Notes under the pieces: generated by a model
The model's input: the letters and a program-made list of their open reading frames with translations, nothing else
Told to the model about the DNA's origin: nothing
Database searches by the model: none
Virus record (IMG/VR): IMGVR_UViG_3300035102_000435
DNA: 49,493 bases
Source: a virus
Reading direction: 5' to 3' (one strand)
Part shown: piece by piece, positions 1 through 49,493 of the stretch
Layout of the letters: every line of letters starts with the position of its first letter
Position numbering within the stretch: position 1 is the first letter of the stretch
Position numbers and translations under genes: made by a program

Positions 1-127
1 AGTCAAAAGAGAAAAGAATTTTATCAGAAATATAAAGATCAGGAAGAAAGCGAAGGAAATTCAGGAGGTGGAGTACTTTGAAAAAATCAGAAATGGTTAA
101 AATGCTTAGTTTTCTTGACAATTATTA
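1..127. repeat. Terminal direct repeat, identical to 49367..49493 (circular or circularly permuted genome; likely assembly overlap)
   Basis: Read directly: the first 127 nt of the window match the last 127 nt exactly. Confidence 0.9.
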
Positions 128-34607: not shown

Positions 34608-34925
34608 ATGAAAGGATTTCCTAAAAAATTAAAGACGAAAAAAGATTATGAAAATATCGTCGATGATTTCGGCTACACTCAAAAAGTAAAAGAAGCTTAT
34701 CAGGCATTGTTAGAAACTGATCAGCATTATGTATTTGATAAAGAACTGGCAACTGAGGATGAAAGGACTGGCCCGCTCCCTGATTATAAAGTAATGAAAG
34801 AAGATGAACAGGAAACCGAGACAGTCAGAATTGTTCAGTACAAATTAGTAGATAACCCTGACTCAAAGCTAAAAGAGTTAGGTTTTACAGAATTCGAAGT
34901 TCAAGAGGTGATTGACTTATGCTAA
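34608..34925 (+). CDS. Hypothetical protein (tail fibre region)
   Basis: 105-aa acidic ORF. Confidence 0.35.
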   Translation: MKGFPKKLKTKKDYENIVDDFGYTQKVKEAYQALLETDQHYVFDKELATEDERTGPLPDYKVMKEDEQETETVRIVQYKLVDNPDSKLKELGFTEFEVQEVIDLC

Positions 34926-35956
34926 GTGTAGTAGGAGTAGATAGTCCTGCTTTTTATAATGCAGAGGGAAATATAGAAAAGACAGCAGGAGTCCAGGGAG
35001 TAGACATCCCGGCCTTGGCATTAAGAATTAATAGGCAAAACTTAAAAGTTGAATCAGCATCAGCACTAACTGCCGCAGATAATGATGGCAGTTTTTCTAG
35101 TTTTGCGATGGGTACTGATTATTATATCTATGCCTGTCAACCAGCAAGTGGTATTGAGCCAGATTTTGTGCTTTCAGCTAACTCTACTTATCCAGATGCA
35201 ATACCTTCCGGAGTTACACCCAGCGTTGATAATACCAGGAAGATTGGTGGCTTCCATTATGGACGAGTAAGGAACAGTTCAACAGCTTCTGATGTATCAG
35301 AAAGTATTGTACCTAACTCAGTCTGGGACCTTGTTAATCGTCCAAAGTGCTCCCCTGAGGGGATGGCTAAGGTCGGCAACCTTTGGGTTGATATTTATCT
35401 AGCATCTGATGATGGTAACGGTGGTGTTGAATCAAAATATAATGCAACACCTATTACCGGTACTGAGGGCTTAAGCTGGTACAGTTTTGCAGAGAGGTTT
35501 GTGAAGGTAGATAAGCGGATGGCATCAATGTCAGAGTGGACAGCATTAGCTCAGGGCAGCCCTCAGGGTAATGATGGCGACAATGTCAATGCCTGGTCTG
35601 CTACAAGTAACAGTGGTAGAACATCTACTGGTTCTGTAACTAATGCTATCAGTAATTATAATATTGTCGATTGTGCCGGTAATGTTTGGGAATGGTTAGA
35701 TGAGGTTTCAATTAGACAGGATTCTACAACCTGGCAATGGTATGATCCAGCAACTGACTTTAATGAAACAATGGAGTCTGGATGGGACCAGCTTGGTGAT
35801 ATGTACTTACCTAATGCAGATGGTCTTTCAGCTTTCCGCGCCGGTGGCCATTGGGATGATGGTGTTCGCTGTGGTGCTCGCGCGTTGAGCCTGATCGACA
35901 AGCCTTGGTACGTGTACTCGACTTTCGGGTCTCGTGGTGTCTGTGATCCTCTGTAA
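34919..35956 (+). CDS. DGR target: tail fibre/receptor-binding protein with C-terminal C-type-lectin/FGE-like variable domain
   Basis: 345 aa; GNLWVDIY and GNVWEWLDE motifs typical of the FGE/CLec fold; the last ~38 codons form the variable repeat. Confidence 0.8.
   Translation: MLSVVGVDSPAFYNAEGNIEKTAGVQGVDIPALALRINRQNLKVESASALTAADNDGSFSSFAMGTDYYIYACQPASGIEPDFVLSANSTYPDAIPSGVTPSVDNTRKIGGFHYGRVRNSSTASDVSESIVPNSVWDLVNRPKCSPEGMAKVGNLWVDIYLASDDGNGGVESKYNATPITGTEGLSWYSFAERFVKVDKRMASMSEWTALAQGSPQGNDGDNVNAWSATSNSGRTSTGSVTNAISNYNIVDCAGNVWEWLDEVSIRQDSTTWQWYDPATDFNETMESGWDQLGDMYLPNADGLSAFRAGGHWDDGVRCGARALSLIDKPWYVYSTFGSRGVCDPL
35833..35945 (+). repeat. DGR variable repeat (VR)
   Basis: 113 bp aligned without gaps to 36359..36471; the 11 differences all fall at positions where the template has adenine. 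Confidence 0.85.
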
Positions 35957-36039
35957 TTCGTGATTTGATAATCTGTTTTTTTATTAAGGTGTGAATATTT
36001 ATCAAAAATCTAACAATACATCAAAAAGTATATGATCTA

Positions 36040-36336
36040 ATGGTTTGGTTTTTCCCGATCGTGGATAACTTTCCGAAGTATGAAAAATTTGTACTTTGCA
36101 CTCAAATAAAGAACTCTATATTAGATATTTCAAAAATCATTATTGAAGCAAATAAAACCAGAGGTAGTAAAGTGAGGTTTCTGCATCGGGTAGATGTCCG
36201 GCTTGAGCAATTAAGAATGCTAATCAGGTTTGCTCATGAAAGGCATTACTTAAACCATTCTAAATATGAAAATGTATCTAAAAAAGTTGATGAAATAGGA
36301 CGCATGCTTGGGGGTTGGATCAAGTCATGCGATTAA
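36040..36336 (+). CDS. avd: Accessory variability determinant (Avd-like four-helix-bundle protein)
   Basis: 98-aa ORF between VR and TR; the C-terminus (VDEIGRMLGGWIKS) resembles the Bordetella phage Avd C-terminus (EVGRILGSWIAR), from memory. Confidence 0.7.
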   Translation: MVWFFPIVDNFPKYEKFVLCTQIKNSILDISKIIIEANKTRGSKVRFLHRVDVRLEQLRMLIRFAHERHYLNHSKYENVSKKVDEIGRMLGGWIKSCD

Positions 36337-36358
36337 ATATTTGGGGTTAAGAGCGTTT

Positions 36359-36471
36359 TTTCCACGCCGGTGGCAATTGGAATGATGGTGTTCACTGTGG
36401 TGCTCGCGCGTTGAACCTGAACAACAAGCCTTGGAACGTGAACTCGAATATCGGGTCTCGTGGTGTCTGTG
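36359..36471 (+). repeat. DGR template repeat (TR)
   Basis: Non-coding copy of the VR; 22 adenines, many in AAC/AAT triplets in the VR-aligned frame, 11 of which differ in the VR. Confidence 0.85.
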
Positions 36472-36495
36472 CTCTTCATGCAAAAATCTTTCAGA

Positions 36496-36519
36496 CAGTA
36501 GTGGTTACGGCCACTACTG
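36496..36519 (+). other. Hairpin in the TR-RT spacer
   Basis: Perfect 9-bp inverted repeat CAGTAGTGG / CCACTACTG around a 6-nt loop, 25 nt downstream of the TR. Confidence 0.4.
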
Positions 36520-36888
36520 CAGTGTTTCTAGAAATGAGGAACAGGCTTTTAATCCCTGCTGAGATACTTTTTTAAAGTCAATCCAGCAAAAAATTTAGAT
36601 TGCTAGCCAGGCAGCAAGTATTGAAAAATAGAAAGTTGTCACAGTCAGCGACTGCCCGTTCTCATTTGAGCGGGCTTTTAATTTCCACCCATAAATAGAG
36701 AAAGTGGTGATAATATTCCAAAAAAATTTAAGAATCTATATCCAAAAATATACGATTTTGAGAACCTATACATTTCTTATGAAAATGCTAGAAAATCTAA
36801 ACGATATACTAACCAGGTCCTTAAATTTACTAATCAGTTAGAAAGCAATTTAATTAACATTCAAAATCAGCTCATCTGGAAAGAATAT

Positions 36889-37827
36889 TTGCCTGGCGAA
36901 TATCATCAGTTCTATGTCTATGAACCTAAGCAGCGGTTAGTTATGGCACTTCCTTTTGAGGATAGAGTGGTCCAGTGGGCTGTATATAGAAATTTAAATC
37001 CTATATTTGATAAAACTTTTTATGAACATAGCTGCGCCTGCCGGATTGGTAAAGGTACTCATTATGCAGCGGACCAGCTGCAGCACTGGATGAGAAAACT
37101 AGATAGAAGCCCAGGGGAAACTTATTATCTCAAAGCTGATGTTGCAAAATATTTTTACAGGATAGATCACAGAACTCTTTTCGAAATCATCAAAAGAAAG
37201 ATTAGCTGCAGAGATACTTTAGAGCTGATCTGGAAGATCATTAAAAAAGATGATGGTGAATTCGGAATACATCTCGGTGATCATTACTTTGAAAGAGATA
37301 AAATCAAAGGAATTGGAATCCCGATTGGTAACTTAACCAGTCAATTATTTGCTAATGTTTATCTCGACTTCATGGATAAATTTATAAAACATAATTTACG
37401 GGCTAAACACTACGTCAGATATATGGACGATTTTGTTATCCTGGGAAAATCAAAGAAAGAACTACATACAATCAGACAGGAGATAGAAATATTTCTTGCT
37501 GATTATTTAAAACTTGAACTTAACAACAAAACTACTGTTGATAATATCTGGAATGGAATAGATTTCTGCGGATATGTCACTTATCCACCATATAGAAAAT
37601 TGAGAAAAAGTACAAAAAGGAAACTCAAAAGACGGCTTAAATATCTTCAGAAAAAGTATTATAAAGAGGAGGTGGAGATCAATGAAATAAATGCCAGCGT
37701 TCAAAGTTATCTTGGAATATTAAAACATTGTGACAGCCATAATCTGACAATGTCGGTTATTGGCCAGTTAGAGGATGAAATACTTAATCAACTAGATTTA
37801 GAGGACGTTCGAGAACAAAGAAGTTGA
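36889..37827 (+). CDS. DGR reverse transcriptase (N-terminus likely extends upstream)
   Basis: YMDD catalytic motif (YVRYMDDFVILG) and the DGR-type IGNLTSQLFANVY motif; coordinates are from the first canonical start, but conserved N-terminal sequence continues in frame back to about 36700. Confidence 0.9.
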   Translation: MPGEYHQFYVYEPKQRLVMALPFEDRVVQWAVYRNLNPIFDKTFYEHSCACRIGKGTHYAADQLQHWMRKLDRSPGETYYLKADVAKYFYRIDHRTLFEIIKRKISCRDTLELIWKIIKKDDGEFGIHLGDHYFERDKIKGIGIPIGNLTSQLFANVYLDFMDKFIKHNLRAKHYVRYMDDFVILGKSKKELHTIRQEIEIFLADYLKLELNNKTTVDNIWNGIDFCGYVTYPPYRKLRKSTKRKLKRRLKYLQKKYYKEEVEINEINASVQSYLGILKHCDSHNLTMSVIGQLEDEILNQLDLEDVREQRS

Positions 37828-37890: not shown

Positions 37891-38352
37891 GTGAATGCAA
37901 AATGGAGACCATTTTTAGACGAAATAATTTATTACTGGAACAAATTTTTTGAGCATACAGTTATAAAAAGTTTTCTTGCGGTGGGGGGCACATTGCTGAC
38001 TATGATGTTTGGAGATATGAATGCAGCTATGCAGGGCTTTTTGATTTTGTTGGCAGCAGATTATATTACAGGAATTATAAAAGCAAGCAAAAAAGGTCAG
38101 CTATCAAGCTGGATGTCCCGTAAGGGGTGGGGGAAAATAGCGACTTATGCAATTGTAATATCGCTTGGCCACCTGGTAACTCAAATAGGGATGAAAGGAA
38201 TGAGAGATTTTGTTCTTCTCTGGGCCGGAGCAACTGAAGCTATATCTATTTTAGAAAACTGTGACGAGCTCGGTGTCGCTATTCCCGAGTTTATGCGAGA
38301 AAAACTTTTACGAACAAAAGAAAATAAATTTGGAGAGGAGATTAACCGATGA
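37891..38352 (+). CDS. Putative holin
   Basis: 153-aa membrane protein directly upstream of the amidase gene, with stop-start overlap. Confidence 0.55.
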   Translation: MNAKWRPFLDEIIYYWNKFFEHTVIKSFLAVGGTLLTMMFGDMNAAMQGFLILLAADYITGIIKASKKGQLSSWMSRKGWGKIATYAIVISLGHLVTQIGMKGMRDFVLLWAGATEAISILENCDELGVAIPEFMREKLLRTKENKFGEEINR

Positions 38353-38927
38353 AAATAACTGATGATGCAGGACATGGAGGTTCTGACCCTGGAGCTGTCG
38401 ACCCAAAAGAAGTTGAAAAAGAAGATGGTATTTATGAAGATGAAATTTACTCTGAAGAGAGCGATATAAATTTGAAAGCAGCTAAGATTTTTAAAGAAAT
38501 AGCTGAATTTAAAGGTCATGAAATTATTATGACCAGAAAAGAAGATAAGTATATCCCTTTGTATCAAAGAAGTGATTTAGCAAATAAAGAAAAAACAGAT
38601 ATATTTGTTTCTTTTCATTGCAATTCTGTGGGCTTTCCTACTGCTAAAGGAATAGAAACTCTATATTATCCAACTTCTAAAAACGGGAAAAAACTTGCTG
38701 AATGTATTCAAGATAATTTAATGAAAGTTGCGGATACACCAGATAGAGGAATAAAGTCCAGAGATAATTTACACGTCTTAGAAGAAACAGATATGCCGGC
38801 TGTTTTAATAGAACTTGGCTTTATTTCTAACCCTGCAGAGGAAAAACTCTTAAATGAAAAAGAATATTTATATCTTCTTTGTGAAGCAGTGTTAAATGGA
38901 GTTGATGATTATGCCAGAAACAGTTAA
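38349..38927 (+). CDS. N-acetylmuramoyl-L-alanine amidase (endolysin)
   Basis: 192 aa; motifs DAGHGG..DPGA, FVSFHCNS, AVLIELGFISN characteristic of Amidase_3-type cell-wall amidases. Confidence 0.8.
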   Translation: MKITDDAGHGGSDPGAVDPKEVEKEDGIYEDEIYSEESDINLKAAKIFKEIAEFKGHEIIMTRKEDKYIPLYQRSDLANKEKTDIFVSFHCNSVGFPTAKGIETLYYPTSKNGKKLAECIQDNLMKVADTPDRGIKSRDNLHVLEETDMPAVLIELGFISNPAEEKLLNEKEYLYLLCEAVLNGVDDYARNS

Positions 38928-39144
38928 TGAAGTCAATCTTAAAGAGGACTCAAACGATAACGGAATTCCCGACTGGGTAGAAGCTACAGCGACTTATCTT
39001 ATAGCTGCTATTTGTGTAGCTCTTGCTGTTTCTGGGTATGTTAAAAATAATTTAGACCCTGCATCTATAAGGTGGTTGATGAGTTTTGCTGCAGCTCTTT
39101 CCGGAGGTAGAGATTTGATTAAAGGTTTTGTAGGGGGACGATAA
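38896..39144 (+). CDS. Small membrane protein in the lysis cassette (start uncertain)
   Basis: 82-aa ORF with a central hydrophobic helix. Confidence 0.35.
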   Translation: MELMIMPETVNEVNLKEDSNDNGIPDWVEATATYLIAAICVALAVSGYVKNNLDPASIRWLMSFAAALSGGRDLIKGFVGGR

Positions 39145-39145
39145 A

Positions 39146-39556
39146 ATGCTAAAAACTAAGCATAAAATTATATTGATTGTTATTGCTGTAATTATAGCCC
39201 TGGCACTGCTGTTTTTTGTTGGCAAGGAAATAGCTGCAGGTTTTGCAGCTGTATTAGGTATATTTGGTTTTAGTGGTGGCAAAGCTCTTAAGAAAAAATC
39301 TGATGAAGTTAAGAAAAAAGCTGATCAGGAAAAAGAAGTGGCTAAAAAAGTAGAAAATAATATTGATGATCGGAATAAAAAAGATAAGCAGCTGCAGCGG
39401 GATGATCAGGAGAGAGCTGAAATTGCTGAAGAATTAGAAAATGAATCTGATGATAGAGAAAAAGAAATGCAAAAAATAAGAGATGATCAGGCAGCAAGAA
39501 AAGAAAAAGGTGAAAAATTAAATGCTCGACTAGAAGAATTAAAAGGGGATGATTAA
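39146..39556 (+). CDS. Membrane-anchored coiled-coil protein (spanin-like architecture)
   Basis: 136 aa; N-terminal transmembrane helix followed by a charged, coiled-coil-like region. Confidence 0.4.
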   Translation: MLKTKHKIILIVIAVIIALALLFFVGKEIAAGFAAVLGIFGFSGGKALKKKSDEVKKKADQEKEVAKKVENNIDDRNKKDKQLQRDDQERAEIAEELENESDDREKEMQKIRDDQAARKEKGEKLNARLEELKGDD

Positions 39557-40028
39557 AATTAAAAAACTGTTAATCATTATTATAGCCTTAGTTTTGATTT
39601 TCTTCCCGGGACAAATTAATGCTCAGGATCAATCTGATGTAAGTTACCAAAAACTATTGGAGCGCAACCAGGAGTTAACTGAAATTGCAGAAGAATATAA
39701 AAAAATGTGGGAAGAAGCTGAAAAACAATTAAATATAGCTGATGAATTATATTCTAAAGAAAAATCTGAAAAAGAAAAGTTTAAAATGCTATATGAAGAG
39801 GAAAGAGAAGATAAAAAAGAATATAGACAGTTATATCAAAGCAGTAATGAAGATCTAAAAAAAGTTTTAAAGTCTAATGAAAGATTACAATCTTATATTG
39901 ACAGTTTAAATGAAACTATTGACAAACATTTAGGAAAAAGTAATATATCTGTATCAACCGGAATCGGTATAAATGCAAAAAATCCAGATGAAAGTCTATT
40001 CATTGTAGGCTTTGAATTTGGGATTTAA
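39549..40028 (+). CDS. Secreted coiled-coil protein (spanin-like architecture)
   Basis: 159 aa; N-terminal signal-peptide-like segment ending ...AQ, coiled-coil body, C-terminal aromatic beta-strand FIVGFEFGI. Confidence 0.4.
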   Translation: MIKIKKLLIIIIALVLIFFPGQINAQDQSDVSYQKLLERNQELTEIAEEYKKMWEEAEKQLNIADELYSKEKSEKEKFKMLYEEEREDKKEYRQLYQSSNEDLKKVLKSNERLQSYIDSLNETIDKHLGKSNISVSTGIGINAKNPDESLFIVGFEFGI

Positions 40029-40057
40029 TATAAATAATTTTTGTAGCGGAGGTAAAC

Positions 40058-40288
40058 ATGAGATACCTTATGTTTTTATTGTTAATAATTTTAGATTTAA
40101 TTTTTAGCGCAGGAACTTCATATTTTATTTTAACTAGAAAAATGAAAAGAATTGATAAAAATTCAAGTTGCGGAACCGGGAGCATCGGAGAAGCAATTAT
40201 TGCTTGGGTAGTTGTTGTGGTTATTTTTATAATATTACTTGCTGTATATGGTTCATTATTGTATTGGATCATGTTTCTTTTACTTTAA
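40058..40288 (+). CDS. Hypothetical small membrane protein
   Basis: 76-aa ORF with two hydrophobic helices; RBS GGAGG. Confidence 0.35.
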   Translation: MRYLMFLLLIILDLIFSAGTSYFILTRKMKRIDKNSSCGTGSIGEAIIAWVVVVVIFIILLAVYGSLLYWIMFLLL

Positions 40289-40298
40289 AGGAGGTCTT

Positions 40299-40511
40299 AT
40301 GGCTATTCTAAAAGTTTTACTTATTATAATAATTTCAATTATAATTTCCGGATTGCAAAGTTATTCAGTTTATAAATGGCTATTAAGTGGAAATCACAAA
40401 GAACCATTTAATCCATTTGTGCCCCAGGAAAACTCTTTAATAGGCGCTGCAGTTGCCGGAATTATCTTTGCATCTGTAAATACAACTATATTACATTGGA
40501 TTATATTCTAA
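40299..40511 (+). CDS. Hypothetical small membrane protein
   Basis: ORF in track from 40239; ATG at 40299 preceded by AAGGAGG; about 70 aa, hydrophobic. Confidence 0.35.
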   Translation: MAILKVLLIIIISIIISGLQSYSVYKWLLSGNHKEPFNPFVPQENSLIGAAVAGIIFASVNTTILHWIIF

Positions 40512-40518
40512 TTATTAA

Positions 40519-40552
40519 CCTCTGGGGCTTTAAGCCCTGGGGGTATTTTTTT
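40519..40552 (+). terminator. Rho-independent terminator candidate
   Basis: GC-rich stem (CCTCTGGGGC / GCCCTGGGGG, with G-U pairs) and loop TTTAA, followed by TATTTTTTTA. Confidence 0.5.
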
Positions 40553-40591: not shown

Positions 40592-40620
40592 TTGACAAAA
40601 CACATGCATGCATGTATAAT
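40592..40620 (+). promoter_or_regulatory. Consensus sigma-70-type promoter
   Basis: TTGACA (40592..40597), 17-nt spacer containing CATGCATGCATG, TATAAT (40615..40620); sits about 30 nt upstream of the 40653 ORF. Confidence 0.6.
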
Positions 40621-40652: not shown

Positions 40653-41342
40653 ATGGCTAGACAAATTTGTGTTTACGTTAGTGATTGGCAGTTTGAGAAA
40701 TTAAAAAAAGAAGATAACAAGTCAGAGGTTGCAAGAAAGGCATTTGATTTATATTATAAAAAGGAGGGAAAAGAAATGAAAATTATTGAAATTGTAGAAT
40801 TAACAAAAAGTGGTGTAAAAGTTAGCGATCAGGACAATCCAATGGCGGTTAGATATTTTAATGACAATGGAAATTTACCAGATGGAAATTTTGACGAAAA
40901 CCAAATAGCTGGCGAATGGGTGCATCTTGAAGGACAACACGCAAATTTTGAAATTTATGCTTATAGATCTATAGACAATAGTACACTCGTTCCAGCTGAT
41001 ATTTTCAAAGAAAAATTAATTAGTCAAATTGCAGGCGCCAGAATTACATTAACTAAAGCTGAATTAGAAGAAAAAGCAGAAATTAATGAAGTTTGGGAAG
41101 AAATAGCGACCGAAAGCATCCAGGCCACAAAAGAAAAAACTTTTTCAAAAGATGGTTGGAGAGATATCGAATTAACTGATGATTATCTATATCAGCTAGA
41201 ATTTGATGAGGGTGGCATAAGATATTATGAAGGTACAGAAGAAAGATATTTAGAGGAACCGGTCGGTGAAGAAGGATGGGATGAACCACAATGGTCTCCT
41301 AAAGAAATTAAAATGCTAATAGATGGGCTTGAAAATGAATAA
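40653..41342 (+). CDS. Hypothetical protein with N-terminal ribbon-helix-helix-like segment fused to an acidic domain
   Basis: 229-aa ORF; the N-terminal ~40 aa look CopG/Arc-like; an in-frame ATG at about 40775 with its own AAGGAGGG could give a separate product. Confidence 0.45.
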   Translation: MARQICVYVSDWQFEKLKKEDNKSEVARKAFDLYYKKEGKEMKIIEIVELTKSGVKVSDQDNPMAVRYFNDNGNLPDGNFDENQIAGEWVHLEGQHANFEIYAYRSIDNSTLVPADIFKEKLISQIAGARITLTKAELEEKAEINEVWEEIATESIQATKEKTFSKDGWRDIELTDDYLYQLEFDEGGIRYYEGTEERYLEEPVGEEGWDEPQWSPKEIKMLIDGLENE

Positions 41343-41916
41343 ATTAATTATACCTGGTCGTATTCTAGGAATATTCTGGACTACGGCCAGCTGGTCCTCT
41401 ACAGAAAAATCTATTCAAATAACTAATAAGGACTATGAAATTGTTAAAAAAGTGCAAAGTTATCTTTCTGAAATTAATTTTGAATATACTATATACCAAG
41501 GACCAACAGAAAATAAGCGCCCAGGTTATGAATATGATTATTACAGAATGAAAATATACAATAGTGATTTCATTGACCTGTTAAGAAATGAGTACAACTG
41601 GCGAGGGAGGAGAGAAAAAAAGAGATATTACCCTAATTTCGATTCTTATCAGCAGGTAGTTGAATTTTTGAGATATTATATTAATTCTCAGCACACTTCT
41701 GCTGAAATATCAGTTAATTGGGGCGACGGAAAGCATAAGCGATTAAAGGTATTTGTTAACAAAAATTTTGCAGATATTCTAAATGAAAGAATAAGCGATA
41801 TTGTAGGGGTTAATGAAAACAAAATATACAAACATTCTCAATCAGATGTATTAATGTATCTTTTTTATCAAAGCAAAAAAGATGTAGAATTAATATTAGA
41901 TTTTATAAATAAATAG
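41323..41916 (+). CDS. Hypothetical protein
   Basis: 197-aa ORF, Tyr/Arg-rich. Confidence 0.45.
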   Translation: MGLKMNKLIIPGRILGIFWTTASWSSTEKSIQITNKDYEIVKKVQSYLSEINFEYTIYQGPTENKRPGYEYDYYRMKIYNSDFIDLLRNEYNWRGRREKKRYYPNFDSYQQVVEFLRYYINSQHTSAEISVNWGDGKHKRLKVFVNKNFADILNERISDIVGVNENKIYKHSQSDVLMYLFYQSKKDVELILDFINK

Positions 41917-42647: not shown

Positions 42648-44189
42648 CTATGGTCTGTAATCTTCAATATTAATTGTGGATTCAAAACGGTACGCCCCAC
42701 CTCCACCATCAACATCCACAATATAATCTATGGTTATATTGTTTTCATATACGGTGACTTTTTTAACGAAAGTTTTGACGATCCTTCGCTGATCTTCAAG
42801 GCTTTCGTTTTTAATATTTCTATACTTCATTAATTCTTGAACAATTCTTTCTTTTGATGGAGAATTATTCTCGGCTTGAAACCTTGCTTCCTCAAGGTAC
42901 ATTTCATAATCTGCTTTTTCATTTTCAAGAGAGTTTAATTTTTCATTCATTGAAGGCTGATATAAACCTTCTGCTACTGCTTCAGTAATGTTATCAATTT
43001 TTTTCTGAACTTCTTTTAAATGTTTTTCAAATCTTTTAATGTCAGAATTTATTTCTTTATTTTCAGTTTTAGCAAATTTGTATACCTTGGCAGCTATATT
43101 TTTGATTGCAGCAGGCGAAAATAATTCTTCTATCATATTATCTAAAACTGCACCTTCTACAAAATCTTTACTTATTGAAGGCATGTCACAATCTCTTTTT
43201 CTCTTTCTGGTAGAACATTCATAAGAAGTGTAGACAGTTTTATTTTTTCCAGCAATTCTTCTATTTCCAACCATTGCTCCCTCGCATTTTCCACACTTAA
43301 TTAAACCGGCAAGAATATAGATTTCTTTAGCTTTATTATTAACAGACTTTTTATTACCTTCCATTCTTTTTTTCACCTTCCTCCAGGTATGATCATCAAT
43401 TATTCTTGGCATTCCACCTTCAATTCTAATAATTTTCTTTTTATCTTTTGACTTATGGTGATTTCTCTTTCCAGCCTTTTTACTTACAGATCTGTTAAAA
43501 ATATAAACGCCCCGATACTTTTCATTAATCAAAATATCATGTAAACTAGGCCTGCTAAAATTACCACCAGTCTGAGTCTTGAAACCCCTCTTTTTAAGCT
43601 CGTCAATTATTTCTGAATAACCATGGCCATCGGCATACATTTCAAAAATTAACTTCACACTTTTAGCCTGCTCTTCATTGATAATGTAAGTCTTATCTTC
43701 TGCAACATCGAACCCAAGGGGTGCTAAACCTCCATTATGTTTGCAATTTAAAGCGTTCTCTTTCATTCCTTTTTTAACTTCTCTGCGTAAATTAGCAGAA
43801 TAATATTCATTATACCCTTCCAATACAGATTCTAATATTATAGATTCAGGACTACCATCCAAATTTTCTAATGCAGAAATAACTTCGACACCATTCTCTC
43901 TTAATTTTCTTTTATATACAGCGGAATCATATCTATTTCTAGCAAAACGATCTAGTTTATGAACAATCACAAAATCAAACAAATCTTTTTTACTGTCGCT
44001 GACCATGTCTAAAAAAGCTGGGCGATCAGAAGTTGTAGCTGATTTCGCTTTATCAGTATAAATTTTATTTATTTTTATATTATTTTTGGCTGCGTACTCC
44101 TTAATTTCTCTAACCTGAGCATCTATTGATTCTTCTCTTTGGTTACTGGAGCTAAAACGTGCATAAATTGCAGCTGTTGGCTTACTCAT
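42648..44189 (-). CDS. Large serine recombinase (integrase)
   Basis: 513 aa; N-terminal resolvase-type catalytic region (AAIYARFSSSNQ with the catalytic Ser), recombinase domain, Cys-rich zinc ribbon and coiled-coil C-terminus; RBS AGGAGG. Confidence 0.9.
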   Translation of the reverse strand: MSKPTAAIYARFSSSNQREESIDAQVREIKEYAAKNNIKINKIYTDKAKSATTSDRPAFLDMVSDSKKDLFDFVIVHKLDRFARNRYDSAVYKRKLRENGVEVISALENLDGSPESIILESVLEGYNEYYSANLRREVKKGMKENALNCKHNGGLAPLGFDVAEDKTYIINEEQAKSVKLIFEMYADGHGYSEIIDELKKRGFKTQTGGNFSRPSLHDILINEKYRGVYIFNRSVSKKAGKRNHHKSKDKKKIIRIEGGMPRIIDDHTWRKVKKRMEGNKKSVNNKAKEIYILAGLIKCGKCEGAMVGNRRIAGKNKTVYTSYECSTRKRKRDCDMPSISKDFVEGAVLDNMIEELFSPAAIKNIAAKVYKFAKTENKEINSDIKRFEKHLKEVQKKIDNITEAVAEGLYQPSMNEKLNSLENEKADYEMYLEEARFQAENNSPSKERIVQELMKYRNIKNESLEDQRRIVKTFVKKVTVYENNITIDYIVDVDGGGGAYRFESTINIEDYRP

Positions 44190-48505: not shown

Positions 48506-49447
48506 GTGGCTGGATACTTCAAACTCTATCGAGATATATTTGAAAGCAGCATATGGATGCAGCCAGTTGATTTAAGATTATTTATATACCTAATTGGACA
48601 GGCCCGCTATAAAGAAGAACCAAACACCAAATATAAAGCTTATGGAATCATTATTAAACGCGGGCAGTTCCTCAGGTCCTATAGAAAAATAAGAGATGAT
48701 CTTGAGTATTTTGAGAACAATGCTCTTAAGCATTATAGCCTTTCAGTAATCAAACGTTCGGTGGATAGATTGGTAGAACAAGAAAGAATAGAAATTGAAC
48801 AAACTAAGCTTGGAACACTCTTTACAGTCGTTAATTACCGGCAGTATCAGGATTATCAAGAAGATAACAAAGAGCTTGGAACGGACTTGGAACAGGGTTG
48901 GAACGGAGTTGGAACACCTGCGGAACAATACAGTAAGAAGGGGAAAGAAGGGGAAAGAAGGGAGAAAGAAAAACGTTCGGACTCTGAAAGTCCGAATTCT
49001 CTCTCTGAAAAAGAAGAATATGAACCTAAATATGGTGAAGAAAGTATTCCCTATAAAGCAGCTAAATATTTAAGGGGAAGAATTTTAGAAAATAATAAAA
49101 GGCAGCCGGTTCCTGATCCAAACCCTGAAGACTTAGAAGATTGGGCTATTGAATTAGAAAGATTAAATAGATTAGGCCCTAAAGGAAAAAGAAACGCTGG
49201 ATATAGCTGGGAAGAGATAAGAAATATAATGGACTGGTGCCAGGAAGATGAGTTCTGGAGTGGTAACATTTGTTCAGCTCCAACCTTCAGGGACCAAATA
49301 ACTAAATTAGAAAATCAAATGAGAAGAGATTTGAATAATAATAAGAAAAATAGTTCTAAAAAGAAAAGTCAAAAGAGAAAAGAATTTTATCAGAAATATA
49401 AAGATCAGGAAGAAAGCGAAGGAAATTCAGGAGGTGGAGTACTTTGA
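48506..49447 (+). CDS. Putative replication initiator/replisome organiser
   Basis: 313 aa; N-terminal DNA-binding-like domain, low-complexity linker whose DNA carries iteron-like repeats, C-terminal domain with YSWEEIRNIMDWCQ-type sequence. A two-domain initiator with the origin inside the gene is the lambda O / SPP1 G38P pattern. Confidence 0.55.
   Translation: MAGYFKLYRDIFESSIWMQPVDLRLFIYLIGQARYKEEPNTKYKAYGIIIKRGQFLRSYRKIRDDLEYFENNALKHYSLSVIKRSVDRLVEQERIEIEQTKLGTLFTVVNYRQYQDYQEDNKELGTDLEQGWNGVGTPAEQYSKKGKEGERREKEKRSDSESPNSLSEKEEYEPKYGEESIPYKAAKYLRGRILENNKRQPVPDPNPEDLEDWAIELERLNRLGPKGKRNAGYSWEEIRNIMDWCQEDEFWSGNICSAPTFRDQITKLENQMRRDLNNNKKNSSKKKSQKRKEFYQKYKDQEESEGNSGGGVL
48876..48926 (+). repeat. 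Iteron array (candidate replication origin)
   Basis: TTGGAAC at 48876, 48887, 48898 and 48909 (11-bp spacing) plus GGAAC at 48922; followed by GAAGGGGAAA tandem repeats (48938..48968) and an 8-bp-stem inverted repeat (48976..48996). Confidence 0.55.
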
Positions 49448-49493
49448 AAAAATCAGAAATGGTTAAAATGCTTAGTTTTCTTGACAATTATTA
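49367..49493. repeat. Terminal direct repeat, identical to 1..127
   Basis: Exact 127-nt identity with the window start. Confidence 0.9.

What the first reader, a model, noticed from the sequence alone, without database searches (positions are those of the whole stretch)
37891..40028. Lysis cassette includes spanin-like proteins, suggesting a diderm host
Downstream of the holin-like gene and amidase endolysin are a membrane-anchored coiled-coil protein (39146..39556) and a signal-peptide coiled-coil protein ending in an aromatic beta-strand (39549..40028). This resembles an inner- and outer-membrane spanin pair, which would imply a host with an outer membrane despite the low-GC, Firmicutes-like sequence.
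Basis: inference. Interest (0 to 1): 0.5.

Follow-up and report, generated by a model that had tools for sequence, protein, structure and literature searches.

The report
Non-lipoprotein spanin-like pair, Halanaerobium phage
The lysis operon of this phage of Halanaerobium, a Firmicute that has an outer membrane, ends with a conserved and previously undescribed protein pair that probably breaches that membrane but does not fit the definition of any known spanin.

Summary
Genes 37891-40028 encode a PF05105 holin, a 192-aa Amidase_3 endolysin, a small membrane protein (p82), a membrane-anchored charged-helix protein (p136), and an exported coiled-coil protein ending in an aromatic beta-hairpin (p159).

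The host inference is also correct. The window is a complete circular temperate phage, 90.7% identical over 8.9 kb to a prophage whose flanking DNA is Halanaerobium. A Halanaerobium saccharolyticum genome carries the same gene trio. Halanaerobium has an outer membrane by electron microscopy.

Calling the pair a spanin pair is only partly right.
- p159 has a signal-peptidase-I site, no cysteine and therefore no lipobox.
- Its outer-membrane address is a C-terminal amphipathic beta-hairpin with a porin-like C-terminal signature.
- In distant relatives p136 and p159 are one fused precursor joined at the signal peptide. This places the p136 helix in the cytoplasm, unlike an i-spanin.

The pair always occupies the last position of lysis cassettes built on six different endolysin types. 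It matches no Pfam, PHROG or NCBIfam family and none of 50,697 GenBank phages. It is most likely a new outer-membrane-disruption device. The function is inferred, not shown.

The parts
37891..38352 (+). Holin (Phage_holin_4_1), first gene of the lysis operon
   Evidence: Pfam PF05105 E 1.6e-24; phrog_199 holin E 1.6e-16.
38349..38927 (+). Endolysin: N-acetylmuramoyl-L-alanine amidase (Amidase_3), 192 aa, catalytic domain only, no signal sequence
   Evidence: PF01520 E 3.6e-47; phrog_435 E 4e-50. Relatives replace it with Amidase_2 or GH108 while keeping the downstream genes.
38896..39144 (+). p82: small membrane protein with an acidic N-tail carrying the conserved motif NEVNLKxDSNDNGIPDW, one clear TM (about residues 31-50), a short Gly/Ala-rich second segment and a basic C-terminus. 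Holin-like, role unknown.
   Evidence: Some relatives carry an unrelated 67-79 aa one-TM protein (p70) at the same position instead. No family match.
39146..39556 (+). p136: inner-membrane partner protein
   Evidence: Lies immediately upstream of the p159 homologue in 33 of 33 loci that include the upstream sequence, and is fused to it in at least 14 representative clusters. No family match.
39167..39223 (+). p136 TM1 (residues 8-26), preceded by MLKTKHK
   Evidence: Mean Kyte-Doolittle hydropathy 3.44 over 19 uncharged residues.
39230..39280 (+). p136 Gly/Ala-rich second hydrophobic segment (residues 29-45, IAAGFAAVLGIFGFSGG). It is either a weak second TM that returns the chain to the cytoplasm, or an interfacial segment.
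   Evidence: 13-17 residues long in homologues, absent from most fused forms. AlphaFold2 is not decisive here, with pLDDT 51-57.
39281..39547 (+). p136 charged helix (residues 46-134): 60% K/R/D/E and weak heptads. Inferred to be cytoplasmic.
   Evidence: Its first 15 residues hold 7 K/R. In fused homologues the same helix runs straight into the positively charged n-region of the internal signal peptide.
39549..39623 (+). p159 signal peptide (residues 1-25), with a signal-peptidase-I site INA|QDQ and no lipobox
   Evidence: Ala at position -1 in about 28 of 29 family members, a small or aliphatic residue at -3, and an acidic mature N-terminus. The protein has no Cys.
39639..39932 (+). p159 coiled coil (residues 31-128), about 15 nm if fully extended
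   Evidence: AlphaFold2 gives a single helix with pLDDT 75-93. One heptad register holds over the whole length.
39945..40025 (+). p159 C-terminal amphipathic beta-hairpin (ISVSTGIGIN ... SLFIVGFEFGI): the predicted outer-membrane-inserting element with a porin-like C-terminal signature
   Evidence: One face reads IVTII / FVFFI and the other S, G, N, E. This is the most conserved part of the family. The last residue is F or W in most members and I or L in the window's clade. Hydrophobic residues sit at positions 1, 3, 5, 7 and 9 from the C-terminus. For C-terminal aromatic signals of outer membrane proteins see PMC3582582.
40058..40288 (+). p76: two-TM protein in the same operon, function unknown
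   Evidence: conserved downstream of p159 in the window's clade.
40299..40511 (+). p70b: two-TM protein, last gene of the operon, function unknown
   Evidence: Gene call in identical contigs; conserved.
40518..40544 (+). Intrinsic terminator that closes the lysis operon
   Evidence: 12-bp stem with 7 GC pairs plus a T-run. A 12/12 consensus promoter follows at 40592-40620.

Best explanation
Region 37891-40544 is the late lysis operon of a complete, circular, temperate contractile-tail phage of Halanaerobium, a Firmicute with an outer membrane.

Shown: the holin and a cytoplasmic Amidase_3 endolysin carry out the first two steps of lysis.

Inferred: the last conserved element, the p136 + p159 pair, deals with the outer membrane.
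- p159 is exported by Sec and cut by signal peptidase I.
- It oligomerises through a 100-residue heptad coiled coil.
- It is anchored in, or perforates, the outer membrane through a C-terminal amphipathic beta-hairpin with a porin-type C-terminal signature. Several hairpins would together form a small barrel, probably inserted by BamA.
- p136 is its obligate inner-membrane partner. Its long charged helix most likely faces the cytoplasm.

In distant relatives the two are made as one precursor that the signal peptidase would split into the same two products.

Functionally this is an analogue of spanins or disruptin. It is not a member of the i-, o- or u-spanin classes.
For: Host:
- The host flank of the 90.7%-identical prophage L002 is Halanaerobium.
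- The gene trio is present in H. saccharolyticum MA284_T2.
- The diderm envelope, BamA/TamB/Skp and OmpM are documented for this genus (PMC5007114).

Lysis association:
- The pair sits after the endolysin and a small TM protein in every locus.
- This holds across six endolysin families: Amidase_3, Amidase_2, GH108, GH24, Peptidase_M15 and Hydrolase_2. It also holds across two kinds of first gene, holin_4_1 or a coiled-coil/C-terminal-TM protein that resembles XhlA by architecture only, with no family match.
- All genes lie inside one terminator-bounded operon.

Export and outer-membrane address of p159.

Pairing of p136 and p159:
- Adjacent in 33 of 33 loci.
- Fused in at least 14 representative clusters.
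- Near-identical fused (P0155) and split (L051) versions exist, the split one with an HNH-like gene inserted between the halves.

No canonical alternative: no lipobox ORF exists anywhere in the 49.5 kb genome.

Not a general Firmicute-phage gene: no homologue in 50,697 GenBank phage records. Only 29 hits among 1.84 billion representative proteins.
Against: - No experiment supports the function. It rests on gene position and sequence features.
- A two-strand hairpin cannot form a barrel alone, and the oligomeric state is unknown. AlphaFold2 confidence for the hairpin is low (pLDDT 42-51), and Foldseek finds no structural relative.
- The window's clade ends in Ile or Leu, not the usual aromatic residue.
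- If the p136 helix is cytoplasmic, nothing identified so far links the inner membrane to p159. A spanin-like fusion mechanism is then not explained.
- One family member (L006) lies in a MAG chromosome with housekeeping genes upstream and no phage genes in the 10 kb held, next to a SleB-like hydrolase. The family may therefore not be strictly phage-borne.
- Only two hosts are identified for the whole family.
Confidence: 0.55

Rival explanations
1. Classical two-component spanin. p136 would be a type II i-spanin whose helix is periplasmic and binds p159. The complex would bridge the inner and outer membranes and fuse them once the wall is degraded. p159 would simply use a beta anchor in place of a lipid anchor.
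For: - Position and adjacency match i-/o-spanin genes.
- p136 has an N-terminal TM plus a long helix.
- The second hydrophobic segment is only 13-14 residues in some homologues, which is short for a membrane span.
- AlphaFold2 does not fold residues 2-39 into a hairpin.
- The two helices together (about 13 + 15 nm) could span a periplasm.
Against: - In all 14 fused homologues examined the p136-type helix leads directly into the n-region of the internal signal peptide. The 15 residues before it hold 6-9 K/R. The 15 residues after it hold 0-2 K/R and 2-6 D/E. The helix and the exported domain must therefore lie on opposite sides of the inner membrane.
- In p136 itself the 15 residues after the hydrophobic region carry 7 K/R against 3 in the N-tail. 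This violates the positive-inside rule for a C-out orientation.
- There is no lipobox, no periplasmic Cys, and no homology to Rz families.
Confidence: 0.15
2. Unimolecular bridge. The p159 signal peptide (or the internal one in fused forms) is not cleaved and acts as an inner-membrane anchor. A single chain would then be held in the inner membrane at its N-terminus and in the outer membrane at its C-terminus. This is a u-spanin of reversed polarity relative to T1 gp11.
For: The architecture allows it: a hydrophobic N-terminus, a 15-nm rod and a C-terminal beta element. Fused forms have 17-25-residue internal hydrophobic segments, long enough for a TM.
Against: - An (A/V/I)-x-A site followed by an acidic mature N-terminus is conserved in about 28 of 29 members. 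A plain anchor would not need this.
- The h-region of the window protein is only 13 residues and is followed by Pro-Gly, typical of cleaved signal peptides.
- The split and fused forms make sense together only if cleavage occurs.
Confidence: 0.1
3. The pair is not an outer-membrane disruptor. It could be a lysis-timing device, with p136 acting as a holin or antiholin-like protein that has a weakly hydrophobic second segment. Or it could be a prophage-expressed envelope protein, for exclusion or conversion, parked beside the lysis genes as lambda bor and lom are.
For: - p136 has holin-like traits: it is small, has one or two TMs, a Gly/Ala-rich segment and a highly charged C-terminal domain.
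- The cassette lies at the prophage end next to the attachment site.
- Cassettes that begin with the XhlA-like gene (resemblance by architecture only, no family match) lack a recognised holin.
- The L006 copy is in an apparently non-phage chromosomal context.
Against: - The pair lies inside the terminator-bounded late operon and overlaps its neighbours.
- It travels with endolysins of six families in phages of different morphotypes.
- The exported coiled coil with a porin-like C-terminus is not explained by a timing role.
- Other small TM proteins (p82, p70 and the 3-TM 91-98 aa proteins) are better holin candidates.
Confidence: 0.2

Closest known systems
Two-component spanins (lambda Rz/Rz1, T4 PseT.3/PseT.2; Kongari et al. 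2018, PMC6139136)
   Same: They are the last genes of a holin-endolysin cassette. The two genes are adjacent and slightly overlapping. One protein has an N-terminal TM and a long charged helix, and the other is exported and directed to the outer membrane. The host has an outer membrane that must be breached after the wall is degraded.
   Different: - The exported partner has a signal-peptidase-I site, no Cys and no lipobox.
- It is a 100-residue coiled coil with a beta-hairpin anchor, not a short lipoprotein.
- The membrane partner's helix is probably cytoplasmic.
- Neither protein has Cys for disulfide links.
- Natural in-frame fusions of the two proteins exist.
- There is no sequence similarity (PHROG E 0.017-0.057).
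Unimolecular spanin (T1 gp11)
   Same: One polypeptide with an address for each membrane. This compares with the fused p136-p159 precursors and with uncleaved p159.
   Different: [quoted passage not shown] Here the polarity is reversed, there is no lipobox, and a conserved cleavage site should separate the two parts.
Disruptin (phage phiKT gp28; bioRxiv 10.1101/515445)
   Same: A non-spanin solution to the outer-membrane step of lysis, encoded in a phage that lacks spanin genes.
   Different: As described in the title and abstract of the preprint, gp28 is a cationic antimicrobial-type peptide. p159 is acidic (19 K/R against 27 D/E in the helix), has a signal peptide and a coiled coil, and comes with a membrane partner.
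OmpM of diderm Firmicutes (PMC10628300); trimeric autotransporter anchors and Thermotoga Omp-alpha (the latter two from general knowledge)
   Same: The order of parts is the same: signal peptide, periplasmic coiled-coil rod, then a C-terminal beta structure in the outer membrane that ends in an aromatic residue. In trimeric autotransporters each chain supplies only part of the barrel.
   Different: OmpM has an SLH wall-binding domain and a complete 16-strand barrel per chain. Trimeric autotransporters give 4 strands per chain. p159 has only 2 strands, no wall-binding domain, and sits in a phage lysis operon. No sequence or fold match was found.

Membership tests
i-spanin (Rz-like) | N-terminal transmembrane domain | tested here: met
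   p136 residues 8-26: 19 uncharged residues with mean hydropathy 3.44, after MLKTKHK.
i-spanin (Rz-like) | Type II topology: the helical or coiled-coil domain lies in the periplasm | tested here: inconclusive
   Sequence logic points to a cytoplasmic helix. In 14 fused homologues the helix precedes an in-to-out signal peptide, and the C-flank of the hydrophobic region is more positive than the N-tail. The short second segment in some homologues and the AlphaFold2 model leave room for a C-out orientation. Reporter fusions are needed.
i-spanin (Rz-like) | Sequence membership in a described i-spanin family | tested here: not met
   Best PHROG Rz-like hits have E 0.046-0.054 with no matched stretch passing on its own. 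This equals the hits to tape-measure proteins. Nothing in Pfam or NCBIfam.
o-spanin (Rz1-like) | Lipoprotein signal with a lipobox ([LVI][ASTVI][GAS]C) and a lipidated Cys | tested here: not met
   p159 has no Cys at all. No family member has a lipobox, and the site is A-x-A|Q/E. No lipobox ORF exists in any frame of the whole window.
o-spanin (Rz1-like) | Outer-membrane localisation | not testable with these tools
   Predicted only, from the conserved amphipathic C-terminal hairpin with hydrophobic residues at positions 1, 3, 5, 7 and 9 from the end.
o-spanin (Rz1-like) | C-terminal interaction with the i-spanin C-terminus across the periplasm | not testable with these tools
   No multimer prediction was available. 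The p159 C-terminus is the putative membrane element, so the geometry would have to differ from that of Rz/Rz1.
u-spanin (T1 gp11-like) | N-terminal lipobox plus C-terminal TM in one chain | tested here: not met
   No lipobox and no C-terminal TM in p159, p136 or the fused homologues.
Disruptin (phiKT gp28-like) | Cationic antimicrobial-type peptide (the only feature taken from the title and abstract seen) | tested here: not met
   p159 is 159 aa, has a signal peptide, and its helix is net acidic.
BAM-dependent outer membrane beta-barrel proteins | C-terminal beta-strand ending in an aromatic residue, with alternating hydrophobic positions | tested here: met
   Most family members end in F or W (for example GFDFQF, GFQYGF, VNWKF). 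The window protein ends in FEFGI, with I, F, F, V and F at positions 1, 3, 5, 7 and 9 from the end. The criterion is from PMC3582582.
BAM-dependent outer membrane beta-barrel proteins | A complete barrel (8 or more strands) within the chain or a defined oligomer | tested here: not met
   Only two strands per chain. A barrel would need at least four chains, and the oligomeric state is unknown.
Phage_holin_4_1 (PF05105) | Profile match above the curated cutoff | tested here: met
   86.6 bits against a cutoff of 22.2.
Amidase_3 endolysin (PF01520) | Profile match above the curated cutoff | tested here: met
   161.1 bits against a cutoff of 27, covering profile positions 4-173 of 174.
Phage of a diderm Firmicute (Halanaerobiales) | Integration in, or close DNA identity to, a genome of that lineage | tested here: met
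   The window is 90.7% identical over 8.9 kb to prophage L002. The flanking gene of L002 is 84%, 83%, 80% and 75% identical to Halanaerobium proteins. The window is 80% nt identical over 1.3 kb to H. saccharolyticum MA284_T2, which also carries the homologous trio.

The most novel reading that the evidence does not exclude
The p136/p159 family is a previously unrecognised third class of phage outer-membrane-disruption system, specific to Firmicutes that have an outer membrane. Its outer-membrane subunit would be inserted as an oligomeric beta-hairpin barrel through BamA, not lipid-anchored through Lol. Its inner-membrane subunit would keep its interacting helix in the cytoplasm until the holin opens the membrane. 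On this reading the envelope-spanning complex could form only after triggering.
Probability: 0.3. Interest if true: 0.8.

Novelty: new variant of a known kind. Interest (0 to 1): 0.62.

Why it matters
How phages of Firmicutes with an outer membrane (Negativicutes, Halanaerobiales, Limnochordia) get through that membrane at lysis appears to be undescribed. No paper in the searchable library links spanins with these lineages. The one survey of their prophages annotates only holin and lysin (10.1101/606087).

These envelopes differ from the proteobacterial model. They are tethered by OmpM, not Braun's lipoprotein. They lack LolB, and Negativicutes lack LolA as well (PMC5007114). A lipoprotein o-spanin is therefore not an obvious solution for them.

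A conserved, lysis-linked protein with a beta-type outer-membrane address gives a concrete, testable candidate. It could also serve as a marker for predicting diderm hosts from viral contigs. It may provide a tool for studying BamA-dependent insertion in these bacteria. Halanaerobium also dominates hydraulically fractured shale wells, where viral lysis is ecologically relevant.

Tried and rejected
1. Homology to known families. Pfam, PHROGs and NCBIfam gave only sub-threshold coiled-coil noise for p82, p136, p159, p76 and p70b.
2. Fold search. Foldseek of the p159 model against the PDB gave no hit with E below 0.6.
3. Embedded or separate lipoprotein genes. Strict and loose lipobox scans of all six frames found only out-of-frame fragments inside a structural gene and the tail sheath gene.
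4. Annotated phage relatives. Megablast of 24 kb of the window and tblastn of p159 and of a fused homologue against 50,697 phage records found nothing. The terminase alone gave mixed hosts and was not informative.
5. tRNA-based host assignment. The window has no tRNA genes.
6. Loci L018-L020 from the viral scan (26% identity) were false positives lying in a T4-like terminase region.
7. AlphaFold2 of p136 to settle hairpin against single span. It was not decisive, with low confidence over residues 21-50.
8. My first idea was that the beta anchor exists because the host lacks Lol. I dropped it for Halanaerobium, which has LolA, LolCDE and Lnt and lacks only LolB.
9. An EnvC-like amidase-activator role, suggested by a JGI label on one homologue. 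Rejected because there is no LytM domain and the pair travels with non-amidase endolysins.
Full report
**What is in the window.**
The window is a complete circular phage genome. Its first and last 127 bases are identical. GC content is about 33% and there are no tRNA genes. Related contigs show a temperate phage with a P2-type baseplate. Their gene calls include a tape-measure protein, GpU, gp25, Baseplate_J and Tail_P2_I, then a diversity-generating retroelement, a lysis cassette and an integration/immunity module. The finding covers the lysis cassette.

**Checking the observation.**
- ORF 37891-38352 is a PF05105 holin (E 1.6e-24).
- ORF 38349-38927 is an Amidase_3 catalytic domain of 192 aa (E 3.6e-47) with no wall-binding module and no signal sequence.
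- p82 (38896-39144) is a small membrane protein.
- p136 (39146-39556) starts MLKTKHK. It has a 19-residue strongly hydrophobic segment, a 17-residue Gly/Ala-rich hydrophobic segment, and a 91-residue tail that is 60% charged. AlphaFold2 models residues 44-134 as one helix at pLDDT about 90.
- p159 (39549-40028) has a Sec-type signal peptide ending PGQINA|QDQ and contains no cysteine. It has a single helix from residue 31 to 128 that keeps one heptad register throughout. It ends in a beta-hairpin, ISVSTGIGIN / SLFIVGFEFGI. One face of the hairpin is hydrophobic (IVTII, FVFFI) and the other is small or polar.
- Two further two-TM proteins follow (40058-40288 and 40299-40511). A strong terminator at 40518-40544 and then a perfect consensus promoter close the unit.

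**Host.**
- A profile of the p159 family found a homologue in Halanaerobium saccharolyticum strain MA284_T2. That locus has homologues of p82, p136 and p159 downstream of a GH108 endolysin. It also has a reverse transcriptase gene 80% identical in DNA to the window's.
- The window is 90.7% identical over 8.9 kb to a metagenomic prophage, L002, that ends in host DNA.
- The flanking chemotaxis gene of L002 is 84%, 83%, 80% and 75% identical to proteins of H. saccharolyticum, Halanaerobium spp. and H. praevalens. Every named top hit is Halanaerobium, and more distant hits are other Halanaerobiales.
- H. saccharolyticum has a cytoplasmic membrane, a thin wall and an outer membrane by electron microscopy. 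The order has BamA, TamB, Skp, OmpM and a partial Lol system without LolB (PMC5007114).

The prediction of a diderm host behind Firmicute-like sequence is correct.

**The pair is a conserved lysis element.**
- In 33 of 33 related loci that include the upstream sequence, a p136 homologue lies directly before the p159 homologue. The pair follows an endolysin and one small TM protein.
- The endolysin is Amidase_3, Amidase_2 or GH108. The first gene is holin_4_1 or a coiled-coil protein with a C-terminal TM. This protein resembles B. subtilis XhlA in architecture only and has no significant Pfam or NCBIfam match. The small TM protein is p82 or an unrelated p70. All these parts assort freely, while the pair stays.
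- More distant members sit beside a GH24 lysozyme, another Amidase_3, a Peptidase_M15 and a Hydrolase_2.
- Many of the 33 loci are near-duplicates. About ten distinct cassette types exist.
- The family is small: 29 hits among 1.84 billion representative proteins. It is absent from Pfam, PHROGs, NCBIfam and from 50,697 GenBank phage genomes.
- The only other host clue is a Bacillota MAG in which the gene lies next to an outer-membrane beta-barrel gene (PF13557, above its cutoff).

**Why it is not a canonical spanin pair.**
Spanins are defined by an inner-membrane protein with a periplasmic coiled-coil domain and an outer-membrane lipoprotein with a lipobox, or by a single chain with a lipobox and a C-terminal TM (PMC6139136).
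- p159 has no cysteine. Across the family the cleavage region is (A/V/I)-x-A followed by Gln or Glu, a signal-peptidase-I site conserved in about 28 of 29 members.
- No ORF in any frame of the genome has a plausible lipobox.
- The conserved outer-membrane address is the C-terminal hairpin. In most members it ends in aromatic-x-Phe/Trp (GFDFQF, GFQYGF, VNWKF), with hydrophobic residues at positions 1, 3, 5, 7 and 9 from the end. This is the pattern of the C-terminal insertion signal of outer membrane proteins (PMC3582582). The window's clade ends in Ile or Leu.
- Two strands cannot make a barrel. Insertion would need an oligomer, which the coiled coil could provide. That step is inference.

**Topology of p136.**
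- The representative search revealed at least 14 clusters of 169-259 aa in which a p136-like N-terminal part is fused in frame to a p159-like part.
- That N-terminal part has a TM, sometimes the Gly-rich second segment, and a charged helix. The helix carries the same motifs, V-x-N-N-I-D-D-R-x-K-K-D-K-x-L and L-x-D-R-L-K-K-H-F.
- The joint lies exactly where p136 ends and the p159 signal peptide begins.
- In all 14, the 15 residues before the internal hydrophobic segment hold 6-9 Lys/Arg. The 15 residues after it hold 0-2 Lys/Arg and 2-6 Asp/Glu. The segment therefore crosses from inside to outside, and the charged helix is cytoplasmic.
- In p136 itself the stretch after the hydrophobic region has 7 Lys/Arg in 15 residues, more than the N-tail. 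This again favours a cytoplasmic location.
- A near-identical pair of sequences exists as a fusion (P0155) and as two genes separated by an inserted HNH-like gene (L051). The two halves therefore work as separate polypeptides, as signal-peptidase cleavage of the fusion would produce.
- Against this, the second hydrophobic segment is only 13-14 residues in some homologues, and AlphaFold2 does not fold it back.

I rate a cytoplasmic helix as more likely than not, but unproven.

**Most likely mechanism.**
- Shown: the identities of the holin and endolysin, the operon structure, the conservation and pairing, the host, and the absence of lipoprotein candidates.
- Inferred: p159 is exported, cleaved, oligomerises and inserts its hairpins in the outer membrane, probably through BamA. 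It weakens or opens that membrane once the wall, and with it the OmpM tether, is gone.
- Open: the role of p136. It may be a stoichiometric inner-membrane partner or a timing element. Or its helix may meet p159 only after the holin has opened the inner membrane.

Rivals are the classical bridging spanin, an uncleaved unimolecular bridge, and a non-lytic or timing role. Their evidence is listed in the rival explanations.

**Verdict.**
The label 'spanin pair' is right by position and probable function but wrong as family membership. The pair is a new, narrowly distributed family. It is the best current candidate for the outer-membrane step of lysis in phages of a diderm Firmicute.

Noticed in passing
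window 34919-37827: A complete diversity-generating retroelement lies just upstream of the lysis operon. The target gene is 34919-35956 (mtd_2nd domain), with its variable repeat at 35833-35951. The bAvd gene is 36040-36336, the template repeat is 36359-36477, and the reverse transcriptase is 36889-37827. Of 13 VR/TR mismatches, 11 are at template adenines. The local GC rise to 0.40 at 34-36 kb coincides with it.
   Followed up: partly
window 1-127 and 49367-49493: The first and last 127 bases are identical, so the window is a circularly closed assembly of about 49,366 bp and a complete phage genome. The same p159 protein is recorded in 40 blocks of the metagenome collection, so the phage is common in its habitat.
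   Followed up: yes
window 42648-44189 (-) versus L001 11295-12440 and L007 12930-14075: Near-identical phages carry different integration modules. The window has a serine recombinase (Resolvase/Recombinase/Zn_ribbon_recom). Its relatives have a tyrosine integrase with different neighbouring genes. Endolysins are exchanged in the same way.
   Followed up: no
window 41323-41916: A LAGLIDADG_3 homing-endonuclease-like gene (E 6.6e-07) lies between the lysis operon and the recombinase. It follows a 229-aa gene of unknown function that is driven by a 12/12 consensus promoter at 40592-40620.
   Followed up: no
L051 4989-6286 versus protein P0155: A 169-aa Cys-rich, HNH-like gene is inserted exactly between the p136-like and p159-like halves. 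The sequence is otherwise close to the fused protein P0155, so this looks like a mobile gene that split a fused lysis gene.
   Followed up: partly
L006 8384-10823 (MAG Bacillota bacterium GB_MAG18_067): A fused p136/p159 gene, a p70-like gene and a SleB/CwlJ-type Hydrolase_2 gene lie beside an outer-membrane beta-barrel gene and a C39 peptidase gene. Housekeeping genes are upstream (MTA phosphorylase, SAH hydrolase, glutamyl-tRNA synthetase) and no phage genes are seen in the 10 kb held. It is either a prophage edge at a contig end or a cellular use of the module.
   Followed up: partly
window 38920-38975 (p82 residues 9-27): The N-tail of p82 carries a strongly conserved acidic motif, NEVNLKxDSNDNGIPDW. 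It resembles calcium-binding thrombospondin-type-3 / OmpA-like repeats (resemblance from memory, not tested). Its role is unexplained.
   Followed up: no
L005 9183-9671: In the Halanaerobium saccharolyticum prophage a DUF5662 gene (E 1.8e-30) is inserted between the p82 and p136 homologues. Those two genes therefore need not be translationally coupled.
   Followed up: no
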